From: a virus
IMG/VR virus record: IMGVR_UViG_3300032271_000867
Location: 24,413-88,412 of that record
Direction: 5' to 3' (one strand)
DNA length: 64,000 nucleotides
Below the pieces are notes generated by a model. That model ran no database searches, was not told the DNA's origin, and saw nothing but the letters and a program-made list of their open reading frames with translations. Below are positions 3,717 to 60,007 of the stretch, one piece after another (the first letter of the stretch is position 1; every line of letters begins with the position of its first letter). Position numbers and translations under genes: made by a program.

Positions 3717-5291
3717 TTATTGTTGGTTTAAATTGTTGCTCAAAAAGTCTATCAGACTTCCTGCAGTAAAATCAATTCCGCCTTTGTCGTTAATTCCGAC
3801 TCCATCAAGTATTGCTCCTGCAACTATTTTCTTTTGATTAAGCATATCATATTGTCTTTGCTCTATTGAATTTTTGATCAGTATGTCTTGAATGGTAATT
3901 GTTGGCCATTCACTTGATGTTCTGTTAATCCTACCATTACGTTGAACAGCAAGTCCGGCAGACCAAGGTTGGTCATAATTTATTAAAAGGTTAGCTTGGG
4001 GTAGATCAACACCATATCCACCAGCATCACTACTAATAAGAACACGAGTATCAATATTAGATTGAAAATCAAGTTTTGCAACTTCTTTTTCTTTGGCATT
4101 CATTTCCCCTGTGTACATTACTGAACTAATACTACTGTCTTTAAACTCCATAAATAATTGAGTTACACTCCACAAATAAGAAGAAAAAATAACTACCTTA
4201 TATTTTGGATCAATGCTTAAATGATCTTTAACATATTGTACTACTGCATCTTGCTTTACTTTTTTAGTTATGTCTTCTAATTTATCACCTAAAGAAGAGA
4301 TATAGGCACTTCCTTTTCCCGTATGATTGTCAAACATTTTTTTACTAACTTGTAAAATTGCCGGGTTACTGCACAGCATCCGTAAGGCTGTAATTCTTGA
4401 CATTATTTGTCCCCGCATCTCGTTAGCCGGGTCATTTAGGTCTCTAGATTGGCCGTAATGGGCAGCAATGCTAAAGTTTGTTCCGAATGTATCTCTGGCT
4501 TCTATTAGCAGCTCTATAAGGTCAGAGACAATAAAGTTGTATAGTTTTTGACTCTTTGAATCTAATGAGATTAATAGTGGTTCACGATAAACTGCATCCG
4601 GTAAGTAAGGTTTTACATCTTCATCATTTTGAGATTTGCGTACTGAGTACGAAGAAACTTTAGAATGTAAAGTTGGAAGATTAACATATCTATCTACTCC
4701 TCCAAATTGATTACGAATAATAAATGCTTTATCAAATAGATCAAATCTACCTAAAATTTTTGGATCTACAAACTGCATGATTGAGTAGATTTCTTCAGGT
4801 CTGCCATTCTCAACTGGTGTGCCGGTCAGTGCAAATCTTACTGGAATCTTTTTAGAAAGTTCTTTTACTTTTTTAGCACGTTTGGCTTTGAATCCTTTAA
4901 TAGCAGTTGCTTCATCACAAATGATGGCATCAAAGTCATGTTGTTTAATTATGTCCCAATCATTTACTATCTGTTCGTAGTTCATGATTACATAATCATT
5001 TGATATAAGTTGTTGATATTGTTCTTTACGTTGCTTTGGATTTCCATCTATAACAATTGATGACGAATCACTGAATTTAACAATTTCTTTTTGCCATTGA
5101 TATTTAAGTGAAGAAAGGCATAGGACAAGGACCGTTTTGGTCATCTTGCCTATGCCTCTTAGTTCTTCAATAGCTGCAATTGTCATAGGTGTTTTACCTA
5201 AACCCATTTCATATGCAACCAAAATATTCTTTTGTTTTACCATTTTTTCAACGGCTTCAACTTGGTAAGGTTTCAACGTTCCTTTGAACAT
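3717..5291 (-). CDS. SNF2/SF2 helicase
   Basis: LKPYQ, EMGLGKT, ICDEAT, ALTGTPVEN, GGYGVDL, QRNGRINR; ATG 5291 follows a GGAG SD. Confidence 0.93.
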   Translation of the reverse strand: MFKGTLKPYQVEAVEKMVKQKNILVAYEMGLGKTPMTIAAIEELRGIGKMTKTVLVLCLSSLKYQWQKEIVKFSDSSSIVIDGNPKQRKEQYQQLISNDYVIMNYEQIVNDWDIIKQHDFDAIICDEATAIKGFKAKRAKKVKELSKKIPVRFALTGTPVENGRPEEIYSIMQFVDPKILGRFDLFDKAFIIRNQFGGVDRYVNLPTLHSKVSSYSVRKSQNDEDVKPYLPDAVYREPLLISLDSKSQKLYNFIVSDLIELLIEARDTFGTNFSIAAHYGQSRDLNDPANEMRGQIMSRITALRMLCSNPAILQVSKKMFDNHTGKGSAYISSLGDKLEDITKKVKQDAVVQYVKDHLSIDPKYKVVIFSSYLWSVTQLFMEFKDSSISSVMYTGEMNAKEKEVAKLDFQSNIDTRVLISSDAGGYGVDLPQANLLINYDQPWSAGLAVQRNGRINRTSSEWPTITIQDILIKNSIEQRQYDMLNQKKIVAGAILDGVGINDKGGIDFTAGSLIDFLSNNLNQQ

Positions 5292-57566: not shown

Positions 57567-57606
57567 ACTAGTTCTTTCAATAAGTTTATATCTATAGTAT
57601 GACAAT

Positions 57607-57648
57607 AAAAAAAGACCCTTGCAGCGTAATCTACAAGGGTTCTTTTTT
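57607..57648 (-). terminator. Rho-independent terminator after tRNA-Leu
   Basis: Minus ACCCTTGTAG-ATTACG-CTGCAAGGGT-CTTTTTTT. Confidence 0.85.
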
Positions 57649-57677
57649 ATTTATTGTTTAGTTTAGCAATAATGCAG

Positions 57678-57758
57678 TACTCGAAACGGGACTTGAACCC
57701 GTATGCCCAGGGCGGTTGATTTTAAGTCAACTGTGTATACCGATTCCACCATTCGAGC
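57678..57758 (-). tRNA. tRNA-Leu (UAA), CCA not encoded
   Basis: GCTCGAA/TTCGAGT acceptor, D arm TGGTGGAATCGGTATACAC, GTTGA-CTTAAAA-TCAAC, variable arm, ACGGG-TTCAAGT-CCCGT, A73. Confidence 0.95.
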
Positions 57759-57764
57759 TTAAAA

Positions 57765-58211
57765 CTAGTCTAGCTCATCAATATAAAGCTCTGTAACATC
57801 TAGACCTTCACTGATAGCTACTCTTCTAAAAAAACTTCGATTAGCATGACAATTAGCACATACTAATTCGCATTTAGCCATTTCAGAAATTACAACATCT
57901 ATATCTTTTGTGTAAGATTTAAAATTTGCTATATTAAATAGTTTAGTTACACCAGGTAAATGATCAAACTGCATTATCCAATAACTGTATTTATTTCCAC
58001 AATCTGCACAAGGATTATTTTCTTTATACTCTCTTACCATTTCTCTAATGGCAGTTTCTAAAGTTTTAGTTCTGACCTTAGTTTTATCAGGTTGATCTTC
58101 TCCTAAATAATAAGAAATAGTACTTTTAGAACAACCTAATTTTGCTTTTATTTGACTATAAGTTAACCCTTGTTCTCTGAGTTCTCTAATTGACTTTTCT
58201 AGTTCAGTCAT
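57765..58211 (-). CDS. HTH + HNH homing-type endonuclease
   Basis: GLTYSQIKAKLGCSKSTISYY HTH; CADC..QFDH..KCELVCANCHANR. Confidence 0.85.
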   Translation of the reverse strand: MTELEKSIRELREQGLTYSQIKAKLGCSKSTISYYLGEDQPDKTKVRTKTLETAIREMVREYKENNPCADCGNKYSYWIMQFDHLPGVTKLFNIANFKSYTKDIDVVISEMAKCELVCANCHANRSFFRRVAISEGLDVTELYIDELD

Positions 58212-58213
58212 TA

Positions 58214-58315
58214 TTAAACTCTGACTAGCCTGCGCTTTGCTGGATCAAACATCTTTGGATGTTTTTTACTTGCCTTACCATTATTACGGTCTGAATTACG
58301 GGCACCTTTTGCCAT
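58214..58315 (-). CDS. 33-aa basic peptide (not in track)
   Basis: MAKGARNSDRNNGKASKKHPKMFDPAKRRLVRV; AAGGAG SD, upstream TATACT -10 and 5' hairpin. Confidence 0.65.
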   Translation of the reverse strand: MAKGARNSDRNNGKASKKHPKMFDPAKRRLVRV

Positions 58316-58377
58316 GTTTATTTCTCCTTAATGTTGCAGGAATACACCTGCTACATATAAGTATACAGTAAAAATTG

Positions 58378-58450
58378 CTGACCTACCTGGATTCGAACCA
58401 GGAACCTTAGAGTTAACAGCTCTCTGCGATGCCAATTTCGCCATAGGTCA
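58378..58450 (-). tRNA. tRNA-Asn (GUU), CCA not encoded
   Basis: TGACCTA/TAGGTCA acceptor, G73, AGAG-CTGTTAA-CTCT, CCTGG-TTCGAAT-CCAGG. Confidence 0.93.
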
Positions 58451-58458
58451 ATATTAAG

Positions 58459-58890
58459 TTATGAGATATATTCTAGTAGGTTTTTTATGTTTTGTGTACT
58501 ATCTTTTAAAATACCTAACGCAACATTGCATGGAAAACATAGCACACCACGAACACAACTTCCACAAGAAAAACGTTTATTACAGCAAGAATGATCATGA
58601 TCAATGTTAACTGCTTCATTTACTTTACAGGCATGGCAGTTACCCTCGTATAAAGCTAATAACTCATTGTACTTTTCTTCAGTTAGTTTATGTCGTTTCC
58701 AGTTAGTTCTGTAAGTAGAACTCATTTGTACTTTTTCAGCGTATTTTTCAGGATTATCTTTATAATACTGAGAAACATAAGTTGAATGACATTTTTTACA
58801 AATGTTTCTTCGTCCATCTACATATTTTGCACCTTTGGCAAACAATTCTAGATCTTTATCTTCGTTGCATTTATTACACGTTTTTATCAT
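58459..58890 (-). CDS. Endonuclease VII-like (His-Me finger) homing-type endonuclease
   Basis: KTCNKC..CKKC N-terminal; CHAC..IDHDH..VRGVLCFPCNVALG. Confidence 0.88.
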   Translation of the reverse strand: MIKTCNKCNEDKDLELFAKGAKYVDGRRNICKKCHSTYVSQYYKDNPEKYAEKVQMSSTYRTNWKRHKLTEEKYNELLALYEGNCHACKVNEAVNIDHDHSCCNKRFSCGSCVRGVLCFPCNVALGILKDSTQNIKNLLEYIS

Positions 58891-58909
58891 AAAAACAGTA
58901 TAGCATTAG

Positions 58910-58989
58910 TGGACCTGGGGCGAATTGAACGCCCGTCTTACTTCCTCCGACATGCGGCTTTAAAAAGCAATCGACACCATTTCAGGCCC
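58910..58989 (-). ncRNA. 80-nt tmRNA-like RNA consisting of the tRNA-like domain only
   Basis: GGGCCTG AAATGGTGTCGA TTGCTTTT..GGAAGTAA GAC GGGCG TTCAATT CGCCC CAGGTCC A: G3.U70, A73, stemless D-loop, helix 2a, GAC linker, T arm; no room for a tag ORF. Confidence 0.8.
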
Positions 58990-58996
58990 TAGACAT

Positions 58997-59020
58997 CCTG
59001 GGCACTGTTAAGCACCCAGG
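58997..59020 (-). other. Hairpin just 5' of the tmRNA-like RNA
   Basis: Minus CCTGGGTGCT-TAAC-AGTGCCCAGG; needs G.U pairs, so it forms only on the minus strand. Confidence 0.55.
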
Positions 59021-59047
59021 TGTTTATTTGTCTAGTCTACACCAAAG

Positions 59048-59140
59048 TTAATTGATTTTAATGACTTTTGGGCGTTTTTCAATAGGTAGTTCTCGGTTGA
59101 ACTGAACAGTCAACATACCGTTCTCAAGCAGGGCATTGGT
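59048..59140 (-). pseudogene. Start-less diverged duplicate of the last 30 codons of hsp20
   Basis: TNALLENGMLTVQFNRELPIEKRPKVIKIN* versus TNALLENGMLTVQFNKNLPEEKKPKVIDIH* at 59228-59320. Confidence 0.85.
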
Positions 59141-59227
59141 TGTGGGACTTCCACCCACCGTCTAAACTTTCCAACTCCCAAGATGTAAGTTGCAAAACTT
59201 AGTCAGTAAACTATTGAATCACACTTT

Positions 59228-59752
59228 TTAGTGAATGTCAATAACCTTCGGCTTTTTTTCTTCAGGAAGGTTTTTGTTGAACTGAACTGTAAGCATGCCG
59301 TTTTCAAGCAGGGCATTGGTGACTTCCCAATACTCAGCTACAGCAAGTTCTAGTTTAAAATCACGAGTAGCAATTCCTTGGTAAACAACTTCGCCAAGTT
59401 GCTTATCTTTTTTCTTACCTTCAATAGTAAGAACAGAATCTTGAACAGTTACAGTGATTTCTTTTTTGTAAAAACCAGCCACAGCTACATTAAGTAGGTT
59501 AGTACCATCTTCCAACGACACAATGTCGTATGGAGGATAAGAGGGGCGATTGTTAGTTACTTCTTTGAGTTGTTCAAGAAGGGGAAACCAGCCAATAGAT
59601 AGGCGGTCTAGGCGGGGAAACAAGTCAGCAATAGTGACTGGTCTCGGCACAGATGGGGTTTTCCACTGGTCATAGTAATCCAAACCATGTGGATTCTTTT
59701 TCTTTTGGGTTTTTGACCAAGGGTTTTGTGGGTCAAATGGTTGTTCGTGCAT
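59228..59752 (-). CDS. hsp20: Small heat-shock protein (Hsp20/IbpA family)
   Basis: SYPPYDI, VAVAGF, LTIEG, YQGIATRDF, A.LENGML.V, PEEKKPKVI.I. Confidence 0.93.
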   Translation of the reverse strand: MHEQPFDPQNPWSKTQKKKNPHGLDYYDQWKTPSVPRPVTIADLFPRLDRLSIGWFPLLEQLKEVTNNRPSYPPYDIVSLEDGTNLLNVAVAGFYKKEITVTVQDSVLTIEGKKKDKQLGEVVYQGIATRDFKLELAVAEYWEVTNALLENGMLTVQFNKNLPEEKKPKVIDIH

Positions 59753-59779
59753 ATTGTCTCCTTAGACGACAACTGTGCT

Positions 59780-59824
59780 ATGAGAACGAACGGTTACAAT
59801 CTCAAATGAGAACGAACGGTTACA
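59780..59824. repeat. 19-bp direct repeat, two copies, inside an inverted repeat in the hsp20 leader
   Basis: ATGAGAACGAACGGTTACA at 59780-59798 and 59806-59824; enclosed by ACTGTGCTA (59772-59780) / TAGCACAGT (59835-59843). Confidence 0.9.
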
Positions 59825-59879
59825 TTACTGCCCGTAGCACAGTATTAGTTATAGACACCCGATTGGCATGTCTAAAAAG

Positions 59880-59888
59880 ATTATAACA
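59880..59888 (-). promoter_or_regulatory. Extended -10 promoter for hsp20
   Basis: TGTTATAAT on the minus strand about 130 nt upstream of the ATG. Confidence 0.6.
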
Positions 59889-59890
59889 GA

Positions 59891-59992
59891 TTATTTAAAT
59901 GTTACAGGAATATGAGTCATACCAAGCTGTCTTGCAGCCATAACTCGGTGGTGTCCTTCAAATTGCTGGCCCATATTTTCTTTACTTGTCAC
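59891..59992 (-). CDS. 33-aa mini-ORF: QF tag fused to a ParB-like C-terminal fragment (not in track)
   Basis: MTSKENMGQQF + EGHHRVMAARQLGMTHIPVTFK; GTG start. Confidence 0.55.
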   Translation of the reverse strand: MTSKENMGQQFEGHHRVMAARQLGMTHIPVTFK

Positions 59993-60007
59993 TAGTATTG
60001 CCCGATC

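What the first reader, a model, noticed from the sequence alone, without database searches (positions are those of the whole stretch)
58910..58989. Minimal tmRNA: complete alanyl-accepting tRNA-like domain with no mRNA-like domain or pseudoknots
Seen: the 80-nt minus-strand RNA has acceptor GGGCCUG/CAGGUCC with G3.U70 and A73, an unpaired D-loop AAAUGGUGUCGA, helix UUGCUUUU/GGAAGUAA closed by only ~17 nt, the GAC linker and a perfect T arm. Known: G3.U70/A73 is the AlaRS identity; a stemless D-loop ending UCGA plus a GAC linker is the SmpB-binding elbow of tmRNA; bacterial tmRNAs are ~350 nt with a tag ORF, and tag-less forms are known from some protist mitochondria. Inference: a phage tag-less tmRNA could titrate host SmpB and block tagging and degradation of phage proteins, add Ala to stalled ribosomes without a tag, or decoy tmRNA/tRNA-cleaving defence nucleases. 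The neatly re-closed helix argues for selection over a random deletion.
Basis: partly seen in the sequence, partly recalled or inferred. Interest (0 to 1): 0.85.

Follow-up and report, generated by a model that had tools for sequence, protein, structure and literature searches.

The report
Phage tmRNA reduced to tRNA-like domain
This phage carries an 80-base gene for only the alanine-accepting, tRNA-shaped end of the bacterial ribosome-rescue RNA (tmRNA), a little-known kind of phage RNA that turns out to be common and probably interferes with the host's rescue-and-tagging system.

Summary
Window 58910-58989 (minus strand) encodes an 80-nt RNA. It has a 7-bp acceptor stem with G3.U70 and A73, a stemless D-loop, an 8-bp helix capped by 17 nt, a GAC linker and a 5-bp T arm.

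ARAGORN and default Rfam scans miss it. Targeted runs align it end to end with Rfam tmRNA, with 302 consensus positions replaced by 11 nt (51.3 and 42.8 bits).

It is a conserved gene. Motif scans plus my covariance model found over 130 viral contigs with 75-81-nt homologues and 97 distinct sequences. All four helices covary, and position 3 is G in 93 of 97.

No holder encodes a full tmRNA or SmpB (0 of 27 records).

The kind is already published: mycobacteriophage DS6A has a "TLD only" tmRNA reported to inhibit tmRNA in E. coli (PMC4131195, PMC11915505). DS6A matches my model at 59 bits. So do unannotated loci in Pontimonas phage phiPsal1 and five BRock-like Streptomyces phages.

This is a new member of a known kind. 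I found no paper describing its breadth. The most likely function is an alanine-chargeable competitor for host SmpB that blocks tagging. This scan noted the same RNA earlier on other DNA (e1-5844305).

The parts
58910..58989 (-). TLD-only tmRNA gene (80 nt, G1 to the discriminator A73)
   Evidence: Sequence and fold. Rfam RF00023 matches end to end at 51.3 bits and 42.8 bits. My model R1 scores it 94.2 bits, but it is one of the training sequences.
58983..58989 (-). Acceptor stem, 5' strand GGGCCUG (G3 at 58987)
   Evidence: Pairs with 58911-58917. Four of the seven pairs show double changes in relatives. G1-C72 and G2-C71 do not vary, and G3.U70 holds in 21 of 23 and 73 of 74 sequences.
58971..58982 (-). 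Stemless D-loop AAAUGGUGUCGA
   Evidence: Aligns to the D-loop of the Rfam tmRNA consensus. Its invariance in my sets is partly by construction, because the patterns fixed it.
58963..58970 (-). Helix P2, 5' strand UUGCUUUU
   Evidence: Pairs with 58938-58945. Seven of the eight pairs show double changes.
58946..58962 (-). 17-nt cap UAAAGCCGCAUGUCGGA, with inner hairpin CCG/CGG at 58947-58957. It stands where the mRNA-like domain and pseudoknots of a full tmRNA would be.
   Evidence: 302 consensus positions are replaced by 11 nt. Inner hairpin pairs covary. The motif AA[AG]NCC is present in 69 of 95 distinct family members. The Streptomyces phage copies have a similar cap, GAAAGCCGCA(C/U)GCGGA, and DS6A has ...AAAACCGCACGCGG....
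58938..58945 (-). Helix P2, 3' strand GGAAGUAA
58935..58937 (-). GAC linker between P2 and the T arm
   Evidence: Aligns to GGAC of the tmRNA consensus. Fixed by the search patterns.
58918..58934 (-). T arm GGGCG-UUCAAUU-CGCCC
   Evidence: 100% of cells pair, and four of the five pairs show double changes.
58911..58917 (-). Acceptor stem, 3' strand CAGGUCC (U70 at 58913)
58907..58910 (-). Discriminator A73 (58910) and trailer CUA. CCA is not encoded.
   Evidence: Across the family, 25 of 97 distinct sequences encode CCA and 90 of 97 have C at position 74.
58997..59020 (-). Upstream hairpin CCUGGGUGC-UUAACA-GUGCCCAGG, 7 nt before G1
   Evidence: A CCUGGG...CCCAGG hairpin stands in the same place after hsp20 in relatives L006, L009, L015, L018 and L019. 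Its role (5' leader or terminator) is not established.
59034..59061 (-). Promoter-like TTAAAA-16-TAGACT over the relic hsp20 stop codon
   Evidence: Read. The homologous site in relatives is TTGACA-16-TATACT (L006 and L007). The scan tool picked an overlapping site instead, TTGAAA-16-TAAAAT at 59082-59055. Promoter-like sites are not enriched in the region: 5 found against 7.3 expected.
59228..59752 (-). hsp20 gene upstream. Hsp20 is a recurrent left-hand neighbour of this RNA.
   Evidence: PF00011, E 9.6e-15. An Hsp20 cluster lies upstream of the RNA in 17 of 133 family loci.
57615..58890 (-). Co-oriented downstream block: EndoVII-type nuclease gene (58459-58890), tRNA-Asn (58377-58450), HNH gene (57765-58211), tRNA-Leu (57677-57758), terminator-like hairpin plus U run (57615-57640)
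   Evidence: No terminator lies between the RNA and these genes, so co-transcription followed by tRNA-type processing is inferred, not shown.

Best explanation
The locus is a functional phage gene for a tmRNA reduced to its tRNA-like domain (TLD). It belongs to the same family as the published 'TLD only' tmRNA of mycobacteriophage DS6A.

Proposed mechanism:
1. The RNA is transcribed with the downstream nuclease and tRNA genes. RNase P and 3' trimming cut it out like a tRNA, and the host enzyme adds CCA. (Inferred.)
2. Its G3.U70 pair and A73 let host AlaRS charge it with alanine. (Inferred from strong conservation.)
3. Its D-loop/T-loop elbow binds host SmpB. The phage has no SmpB of its own. 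(Absence shown, binding inferred.)
4. It has no resume codon, tag frame or stop codon. It therefore competes with host tmRNA for SmpB, AlaRS, EF-Tu and the empty A site of stalled ribosomes, and it cannot add the degradation tag.

The net effect would be that host trans-translation tagging is blocked or diverted during infection. This could spare phage proteins made from truncated messages, or disable a host quality-control pathway.
For: Identity:
- Rfam tmRNA aligns end to end and beats the tRNA-clan models.
- DS6A's published TLD-only RNA (JN698994 28478-28557) matches the model built from this family at 59.0 bits, E about 1e-15. It has the same layout.

The gene is under selection:
- Homologues occur in 29 of 29 strict-pattern viral hits and 102 of 105 new relaxed-pattern loci.
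- All four helices covary.
- The helix-plus-cap length is held to 28-34 nt in 95 sequences, although the patterns allowed 22-52 and 25-55 nt.
- The RNA sits in unrelated phage backgrounds: after hsp20 in about 90-kb myoviruses, between prohead protease and major capsid gene, and at the head of a 24-tRNA cluster in a 208-kb contig.

Charging matters:
- Position 3 is G in 93 of 97 distinct sequences, and position 74 is C in 90 of 97.
- U70 pairs with G3 in 73 of 74.
- A73 is present in 23 of 23 where the pattern left it free.
- G3.U70 plus A73 is the AlaRS identity set (passage in PMC3968760).

Dependence on host factors:
- SmpB (PF01668) is absent from this phage record and from 0 of 27 other records holding the RNA, 7 of which are at least 90% complete.
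- No full-length tmRNA occurs in those 27 records.

Published precedent:
- A DS6A-like TLD strongly inhibits tmRNA in E. coli, 'perhaps acting by titrating SmpB' (passages in PMC4131195, and PMC11915505).
- All known tmRNA partners except S1 bind the TLD (PMC3968760).
Against: - Nothing here shows that the RNA is made, processed, charged or bound by SmpB.
- The inhibition experiment is known to me only through two citing papers. The primary paper, Mao et al. 2009, is not held. The experiment was done in E. coli by overexpression.
- That report says inhibition did not need charging. Yet the family conserves the alanine identity elements very strongly, which fits an RNA that must act on the ribosome better than a passive SmpB sponge.
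- CDS-less tmRNAs of mitochondria and some plastids coexist with SmpB as the only tmRNA (PMC11915505). TLD-only RNAs are therefore not necessarily inhibitors.
- Some phages carry complete tmRNAs, so boosting rescue can also pay for a phage.
- The host is unknown.
Confidence: 0.55

Rival explanations
1. Productive tag-less rescue. Ala-TLD with host SmpB and EF-Tu enters stalled ribosomes and accepts the nascent chain. The ribosome is then freed by a hydrolase or release factor, by drop-off, or by further rounds. The phage gains extra ribosome-rescue capacity without marking proteins for degradation, and truncated proteins would end in one or more untemplated alanines.
For: - The AlaRS identity elements and C74 are very strongly conserved.
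[quoted passage not shown] This is the work of Shimizu and Ueda 2006 as described in a passage of PMC3895274.
- Organelles keep CDS-less tmRNAs together with SmpB as their only tmRNA (PMC11915505).
- In 25 of 133 family loci the gene sits directly before the major capsid gene. That placement suits a factor needed during peak translation.
Against: - No known step releases a peptidyl-TLD without a stop codon.
- No Pfam release-factor, ArfB or peptidyl-tRNA hydrolase domain appeared among the ten commonest neighbour clusters I annotated. Only 10 of the top 20 clusters were scanned.
- The one experimental report describes inhibition, not rescue.
Confidence: 0.25
2. Decoy or sponge for something other than SmpB. 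Candidates are host nucleases or defence proteins that recognise or cleave tmRNA or tRNA-like structures, RNase R, or defence proteins with SmpB-like domains.
For: - All tmRNA partners except S1 bind the TLD, including RNase R (PMC3968760).
- A phage anti-CRISPR protein works through tRNA and tmRNA fragments that bind RNase R (passages in PMC11662646).
- SmpB-like domains occur in CoCoNuT restriction systems (passage in PMC10542128).
Against: - No such defence gene or partner is linked to the locus.
- Neighbourhoods differ widely between phage groups.
- Conservation of the exact AlaRS identity set is not needed for a nuclease decoy.
Confidence: 0.08
3. Half of a split tmRNA. A separately encoded tag-coding RNA elsewhere in the phage pairs with this TLD to rebuild a two-piece tmRNA.
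For: Earlier notes of this scan (e1-5796428 and others) describe phages with separate TLD-like and tag-like RNA genes. Two-piece tmRNAs exist in bacteria and marine phages (PMC9004378).
Against: - Helix P2 is closed on itself by a conserved hairpin, which leaves no free strand to pair with a coding piece.
- Rfam at E<=1 finds no other tmRNA-type match in the window.
- In the whole 88-kb record, RF00023 finds no second match and RF04321 gives only 13.6 bits or less.
- The record has no non-coding gap above 337 nt, and the largest gap is the one holding this RNA.
- The few short frames ending in AA or AV in gaps all lie on the strand opposite the local genes.
- The gene order is standard, not permuted.
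- The record is only about 92% complete, so absence is not proven.
Confidence: 0.04
4. Non-functional relic: a decayed tRNA-Ala, a deleted ssrA copy picked up from a host, or an attP core for integration into ssrA.
For: Phages often integrate into tmRNA genes and carry their 3' ends (passages in PMC10865867, and PMC9004378). ARAGORN and default Rfam scans do not call the locus.
Against: - Compensatory changes occur on both strands of all four helices across 97 distinct sequences.
- An attP core needs only the 3' part of ssrA, whereas both halves are kept here.
- The commonest neighbours are capsid, protease, portal and Hsp20 genes, not integrases.
- In 596 Gb of bacterial and archaeal genomes the strict pattern gave only 2 real copies, both on MAG contigs under 5 kb, against 29 in the viral set.
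Confidence: 0.02

Closest known systems
'TLD only' tmRNA of mycobacteriophage DS6A (tmRNA Website tmID 11587, Phage__Mycobacterium.9; JN698994 28478-28560)
   Same: - Phage-encoded and about 80 nt.
- Same order of parts: 7-bp acceptor with G3.U70, stemless D-loop ...AAUGGUGGUCGA, short P2 helix capped by an A-rich stretch plus a small hairpin, T arm, A73, and no encoded CCA.
- It matches the model built from this family over its full length at 59 bits.
- It scores like the window RNA on Rfam tmRNA: 43.2 against 51.3 bits with the same tool.
   Different: - DS6A's linker is CAC, not GAC, its D-loop is one base longer, and its G+C is 70% against 54%.
- It infects Mycobacterium and lies in a different genome context.
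- It was reported as a single oddity. Here the RNA is one of more than 130 viral-contig copies.
Standard one-piece tmRNA (SsrA, Rfam RF00023)
   Same: Acceptor stem with the alanine identity set, D-loop, base of P2a, GAC linker and T arm align to model positions 1-31 and 334-374. The acceptor stem is letter for letter that of the full-length tmRNA of Gordonia phage PatrickStar.
   Different: It lacks the resume codon, tag reading frame, stop codon and all pseudoknots: 302 consensus positions are replaced by 11 nt. It therefore cannot perform the messenger half of trans-translation.
CDS-less organellar tmRNAs (jakobid and oomycete mitochondria, Rfam RF02544; Mallomonadaceae plastids of about 65 bp)
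   Same: Natural tmRNAs without a tag frame that still coexist with SmpB (passage in PMC11915505).
   Different: - RF02544 gives no match in this record at E<=10.
- The organellar forms are the only tmRNA in their compartment.
- The phage RNA would meet a complete host tmRNA, so competition is built in.
Laboratory TLD constructs (truncated tmRNA used for SmpB co-crystals and kinetics)
   Same: Same idea, a TLD with P2 closed by a short loop. Such a construct accepts the peptide on the ribosome in vitro (passage in PMC3895274). SmpB binds the TLD elbow (PMC3968760).
   Different: Those constructs are engineered. Here evolution has arrived at the same minimal unit and kept a conserved cap motif of unknown role.
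Complete phage tmRNAs (mycobacteriophage Bxz1 group, Gordonia phage Orchid group, two-piece tmRNAs of marine myophages)
   Same: Phage-borne members of the tmRNA family, often beside tRNA genes.
   Different: They keep the tag frame. One example is the 415-nt annotated gene in Gordonia phage PatrickStar. They get no significant full-length match to my model: 16.9 bits and none at E<=0.001.

Membership tests
tmRNA (SsrA, Rfam RF00023) | 7-bp acceptor stem with G3.U70 and discriminator A73 (alanine identity) | tested here: met
   Conserved in the family.
tmRNA (SsrA, Rfam RF00023) | Stemless D-loop plus a tRNA-like T arm, joined to helix P2 in place of an anticodon arm | tested here: met
   Alignment to the family consensus. 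The T arm and P2 covary.
tmRNA (SsrA, Rfam RF00023) | mRNA-like domain: resume codon, tag reading frame, stop codon | tested here: not met
   Only 17 nt lie between the P2 strands. 302 model positions are replaced by 11 nt.
tmRNA (SsrA, Rfam RF00023) | Pseudoknots PK1-PK4 | tested here: not met
   There is no room for them.
tmRNA (SsrA, Rfam RF00023) | Score at or above the curated gathering threshold (47 bits) | tested here: inconclusive
   51.3 bits with the genome search. 42.8 bits with cmscan on the 89-nt slice. 13.8 bits on a 301-nt slice. Not reported in whole-window scans.
tmRNA (SsrA, Rfam RF00023) | Charged by AlaRS and bound by SmpB | not testable with these tools
   Needs biochemistry.
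Phage TLD-only tmRNA (DS6A type) | [quoted passage not shown] | tested here: met
   The record is a virus record of 88,412 bases with terminase, portal, capsid and sheath genes.
Phage TLD-only tmRNA (DS6A type) | Homology to the DS6A RNA in sequence and structure | tested here: met
   DS6A matches model R1, built without it, at 59.0 bits over positions 1-79.
Phage TLD-only tmRNA (DS6A type) | Inhibits endogenous tmRNA when expressed | not testable with these tools
   Reported for a DS6A-like molecule (passages in PMC4131195 and PMC11915505). The primary paper is not held.
tRNA-Ala (Rfam RF00005) | D stem, anticodon arm with an alanine anticodon | tested here: not met
   ARAGORN calls only tRNA-Leu and tRNA-Asn. 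RF00005 at E<=10 finds only those two in the record. A true tRNA-Ala scores 20.8 bits on R1, against 94.2 for this RNA.
Mitochondrial tmRNA (Rfam RF02544) | Match to the family model | tested here: not met
   No match at E<=10 in the record, with 25 candidates scored.
Two-piece (permuted) tmRNA (Rfam RF04321) | Permuted gene order with the acceptor piece before the coding piece | tested here: not met
   The 5' and 3' TLD halves are in standard order. Only a partial match covering the T arm and 3' end was found, at 22.4 and 9 bits against a cut-off of 47.

The most novel reading that the evidence does not exclude
TLD-only tmRNAs are a widespread phage device, not a curiosity. They occur in more than 130 viral contigs in several unrelated phage types, and in cultured phages of Mycobacterium, Streptomyces and Pontimonas. 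They would act catalytically on the ribosome: charged with alanine and carried by host SmpB and EF-Tu, they take over stalled ribosomes and convert host 'rescue and destroy' into 'rescue without tag', possibly by alanine-tailing. This would reprogramme bacterial translational quality control during infection. The conserved cap motif (AAAGCC...GGA) would be a functional contact rather than a mere closure.
Probability: 0.3. Interest if true: 0.8.

Novelty: new member of a known kind. Interest (0 to 1): 0.55.

Why it matters
Trans-translation by tmRNA-SmpB is the main ribosome-rescue and quality-control pathway of bacteria, and it is a drug target. A natural RNA of about 80 nt that phages have spread across many lineages, and that keeps exactly the parts of tmRNA that bind SmpB, AlaRS and EF-Tu, points to manipulation of this pathway as a common phage strategy.

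The 2025 tmRNA database counts only 9 'standard, no CDS' sequences among 97,179, and names one phage case. The breadth seen here, and the unannotated copies in cultured phages, would be new to the field. Those phages are phiPsal1 and the BRock-like Streptomyces phages Alone3, LuckySocke, GiJojo, BRock and pSt2308. They make the function directly testable in non-pathogenic hosts.

There is also a practical point. Standard annotation (ARAGORN, default Rfam) misses these genes, and in GiJojo a 'hypothetical protein' is drawn over one.

Tried and rejected
- **Standard finders.** ARAGORN on the window, on the whole record and on 31 family loci never called the RNA as tRNA or tmRNA. Rfam at gathering threshold and at E<=1 on the whole window listed only the two tRNAs. 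These are filter and length effects, because targeted runs do align it.
- **Mitochondrial model.** RF02544 gave no match.
- **Close relatives by DNA.** Megablast of 3 kb against the phage collection gave nothing. An exact 28-mer in viral contigs gave nothing. Blastn of the 91-nt stretch against cultured phages gave only partial T-arm matches to tmRNA and tRNA genes, and did not find DS6A. Blastn is therefore too weak for this family.
- **attP or integrase idea.** The commonest downstream neighbour was about 400 aa, and I suspected an integrase. Pfam shows it is the major capsid protein, so I rejected the idea.
- **Decayed tRNA-Ala or random deletion.** Rejected on covariation.
- **Split tmRNA.** I looked for a tag-coding partner in the whole record and found none. 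The record is about 92% complete.
- **Expression.** No RNA holder was listed for window 57600-60000.
- **Host.** Not identified. The actinobacterial link is inference. The capsid protein is 62-63% identical to BRock-like Streptomyces phages. The cultured holders found infect Mycobacterium, Streptomyces and Pontimonas.
- **Literature on a widespread family.** Searches found only the DS6A mentions. Mao et al. 2009 is not held.
- **Complex prediction and structure tools.** Not used, because they take no RNA.
Full report
**What is there.** The minus strand of window 58910-58989 reads, 5' to 3': GGGCCUG, AAAUGGUGUCGA, UUGCUUUU, UAAAGCCGCAUGUCGGA, GGAAGUAA, GAC, GGGCG-UUCAAUU-CGCCC, CAGGUCC, A, followed by CUA. 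This is a 7-bp acceptor stem with G3.U70, a 12-nt D-loop with no stem, an 8-bp helix capped by 17 nt (with a small inner hairpin CCG/CGG), a GAC linker, a 5-bp T stem with a 7-nt loop, and discriminator A73. CCA is not encoded. The MFE fold gives these helices at -29.5 kcal/mol, but 5 of 200 shuffles fold as well (z = -2.27). The single-sequence fold is therefore weak evidence on its own.

**Standard tools.** ARAGORN finds only tRNA-Leu (57677-57758) and tRNA-Asn (58377-58450). Whole-window Rfam scans list only these two. Targeted runs do recognise the RNA.
- The whole-record search with RF00023 (tmRNA) gives one match at window 58907-58989, covering model positions 1-374, at 51.3 bits (cut-off 47) and E 8.5e-21.
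- cmscan on the 89-nt slice gives 42.8 bits. Its alignment matches the acceptor, D-loop, base of P2, GAC, T arm and 3' end, and 302 consensus positions are replaced by 11 nt.
- In that run tmRNA outscored the overlapping models of the tRNA clan.
- RF02544 (mitochondrial tmRNA) finds nothing.
- RF00005 finds only the two real tRNAs.

**Setting.** The window is part of an 88,412-base IMG/VR virus record, about 92% complete. It is a myovirus with terminase, portal, HK97-type capsid, sheath and baseplate genes.

On the minus strand the order is:
1. hsp20 (59228-59752)
2. a relic copy of the hsp20 3' end
3. a promoter-like site
4. a hairpin (59020-58997)
5. the RNA
6. an EndoVII-type nuclease gene starting 20 nt after A73
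7. tRNA-Asn
8. an HNH gene
9. tRNA-Leu
10. a terminator-like hairpin with a U run (57640-57615)

Co-transcription and tRNA-type processing are inferred. Promoter-like sites are not enriched over shuffles.

**Relatives by synteny.** Twenty viral contigs encode a close Hsp20 relative. Three of the 20 (L008, L012, L018) have a homologous 80-nt RNA right after hsp20. These copies show compensatory changes:
- U6-A67 becomes A-U.
- T stem GGGCG/CGCCC becomes CGCAG/CUGCG.
- P2 UUGCUUUU/GGAAGUAA becomes UUGCAGA/UCUGUAA.
- The inner hairpin CCG/CGG becomes CCU/AGG in L008.

In the other 17 loci the slot holds tRNA genes, another structured RNA or a protein gene. The site is therefore a variable RNA-gene slot.

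**Relatives by motif.** A strict pattern (D-loop core, a 25-55-nt gap, GAC, T-loop) found 29 viral contigs. All 29 carry both stems and score 70-99 bits on the covariance model R1 that I built from them.

As a control, the same pattern in 596 Gb of bacterial and archaeal genomes gave 8 hits. Six have no stems and are chance matches. Two are real copies on MAG contigs of 4.3 and 4.6 kb, probably phage DNA.

Of the 105 new loci, 102 have full-length R1 matches. One of these, L164, is cut by a contig end. L123 has no match, and L147 and L173 have only weak ones. Together this gives 97 distinct sequences of 71-81 nt.

**Covariation.**
- On the MAFFT alignment of 23 distinct sequences (not fitted to a structure), 93.6% of cells pair, 17 of 23 pairs have double changes, 0 of 500 shuffles reach the observed values, and slid controls give 30-50%. 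RNAalifold independently recovers the acceptor, T arm and lower P2.
- On the model-fitted alignment of 75 distinct sequences, 94.1% of cells pair. This alignment leans towards the structure. The acceptor is 99.4% paired and the T arm 100%.
- Limits: the D-loop core, GAC/RAC, T-loop letters and (in the second scan) the terminal CCA were fixed by the patterns.
- Free positions tell more. G1-C72 and G2-C71 never vary. G3.U70 holds in 21 of 23 and 73 of 74. A73 holds in 23 of 23 in the first set.
- Over all 97 sequences, position 3 is G in 93 and A in 4. Position 74 is C in 90, and CCA is encoded in 25.
- The helix-plus-cap segment is 28-34 nt in 95 sequences, although the patterns allowed 22-52 and 25-55 nt. 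69 of 95 carry AA[AG]NCC in the cap.

**No partner genes.**
- In 27 records that hold the RNA, 7 of them at least 90% complete, RF00023 finds no long tmRNA. Its 11 matches that span the model at 42.7 bits or more are copies of about 80 nt. Many other copies were missed by the tool's first filter.
- SmpB (PF01668) is found in 0 of 27 and not in this record.
- In this record I found no candidate tag-coding RNA. There are no other tmRNA-type Rfam matches. No non-coding gap is longer than 337 nt. The only short frames ending in AA or AV in gaps lie on the strand opposite the local genes.

**Contexts.** Among 133 family loci the commonest neighbours are:
- an HK97-type major capsid gene immediately downstream (25 loci)
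- a portal gene (20 loci) and a prohead protease gene (15 loci) upstream
- Hsp20 upstream (17 loci, including the window)
- an NlpC/P60 gene downstream (17 loci)

In a 208-kb contig the RNA heads a cluster of 24 tRNA genes that includes a true tRNA-Ala. One locus, L111, has two copies. The RNA has therefore moved between unrelated phages and into different modules.

**Known precedent.** Hudson, Lau and Williams 2014 list 'Mycobacterium phage DS6A (TLD only)'. [quoted passage not shown]

The 2025 tmRNA database paper repeats this. It counts 79 phage sequences and 9 'standard, no CDS' sequences among 97,179, and adds plastid genes of about 65 bp without CDS (passages).

I located the DS6A RNA at JN698994 28478-28560 (RF00023, 43.2 bits) and read it. 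It has the same layout. It matches R1, which was built without it, at 59.0 bits over the full model. The window RNA and the DS6A RNA are therefore one family.

**Cultured holders found here.**
- Pontimonas phage phiPsal1 carries an unannotated copy at MG835450.1 5569-5647, in the gap before its major capsid gene. It scores 52.7 bits, and its D-loop does not fit my patterns, so it is an independent hit.
- The six cultured records closest to this phage by capsid protein (62-63% identity) are five BRock-like Streptomyces phages. All five carry a copy of about 78 nt after tRNA-Val, at 38-59 bits. It is unannotated, or lies under a 'hypothetical protein' in GiJojo.
- Their caps read GAAAGCCGCA(C/U)GCGGA, close to the window's UAAAGCCGCAUGUCGGA.
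- The holders I found infect Actinomycetota. This hints at the host range but does not prove it for this 37% G+C phage.

**Mechanism.** From the literature:
- SmpB binds the TLD elbow and D-loop.
- G3.U70 plus A73 is the AlaRS identity set.
- All tmRNA partners except S1 bind the TLD (passages in PMC3968760).
- A TLD-only truncated tmRNA takes part in peptidyl transfer in vitro (passage in PMC3895274).

From the data here, the RNA keeps all these elements under selection, has no message part, and comes without SmpB.

I infer that it uses host SmpB and AlaRS and so competes with host tmRNA. Whether the outcome is inhibition (my best reading, 0.55) or productive tag-less rescue (0.25) cannot be decided by computation. 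The strong conservation of the charging elements argues that it acts on the ribosome rather than as a passive sponge. The four A3-U70 variants would fit the reported charge-independent inhibition.

**Novelty and score.** The kind is in print, including an experiment, so this is a new member of a known kind. Three things appear not to be in print, according to the searches. These covered open-access papers and preprints only, with supplements closed:
- the size of the family
- its placement before capsid genes
- its unannotated presence in cultured Streptomyces and Pontimonas phages

This scan had already noted and followed up the same RNA after hsp20 in another phage (e1-5844305). My results agree with that note. 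Interest is 0.55.

Noticed in passing
window 59048-59320 (minus strand): The last 30 or so codons and the stop of hsp20 occur twice, at 59228-59320 and 59048-59140, separated by an 87-nt spacer (59141-59227). The spacer folds into a long hairpin followed by a T-arm-like GGUGGG-UGGAAGU-CCCAC. The downstream (relic) copy is the one followed by the promoter-like motif seen in relatives. This looks like a recombination scar that brought in another phage's hsp20 end plus part of an RNA gene. The spacer has no look-alike in any locus held. It was also noted earlier as e1-6117298.
   Followed up: partly
L014 about 4504-4720; L018 about 4632-4760: Downstream of hsp20 (L014) or of the TLD RNA (L018, and also L037, L038, L050, L052) lie further structured RNAs. 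They end in ...CAGUCCACG with a matching GGACUG upstream, so they are tRNA-shaped but not called by ARAGORN. These companions are absent from the window, where a nuclease gene follows the RNA.
   Followed up: no
L083 5382-5462 and 24 similar loci; MG835450.1 5569-5647: In 25 of 133 family loci the TLD-only RNA sits directly upstream of the major capsid gene, after portal and prohead protease genes. This holds in the cultured Pontimonas phage phiPsal1 too. An RNA gene inside the late structural operon is unusual and unexplained.
   Followed up: partly
PP725410.1 17023-17265 (L177 300-542): In Streptomyces phage GiJojo the annotated 'hypothetical protein' gene 44 starts on top of the TLD-only RNA (R1 match at L177 302-379, 57.6 bits). 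This is probably a mis-annotation.
   Followed up: partly
L032 424-502, L043 1039-1117 and two others: Four of 97 distinct family members have A3-U70 instead of G3.U70, which should abolish alanine charging. L049 has an A1-C72 mismatch. These copies may be uncharged variants or may be decaying.
   Followed up: no
L111 5-81 and 1317-1392: One viral contig carries two copies of the TLD-only RNA about 1.3 kb apart.
   Followed up: no
L055 120-197; L059 2336-2413: The only two real copies in the genome collection lie on contigs of 4.3 and 4.6 kb, binned as a Thermoclostridium MAG and a Methanomethylophilaceae (archaeal) MAG. These are probably mis-binned phage DNA. That bears on published reports of 'archaeal tmRNA' from MAGs.
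   Followed up: no
OR725492.1 11147-12733 (L062): Streptomyces phage Alone3 encodes an annotated 'Ro-like RNA binding protein' at the head of its tRNA cluster. The same cluster holds the TLD-only RNA.
   Followed up: no
window 57765-58890: Two free-standing nuclease genes, one EndoVII-type and one HNH with an N-terminal HTH, are interleaved with the RNA genes. This is typical of homing endonucleases in phage tRNA regions and may explain the turnover of this slot.
   Followed up: no
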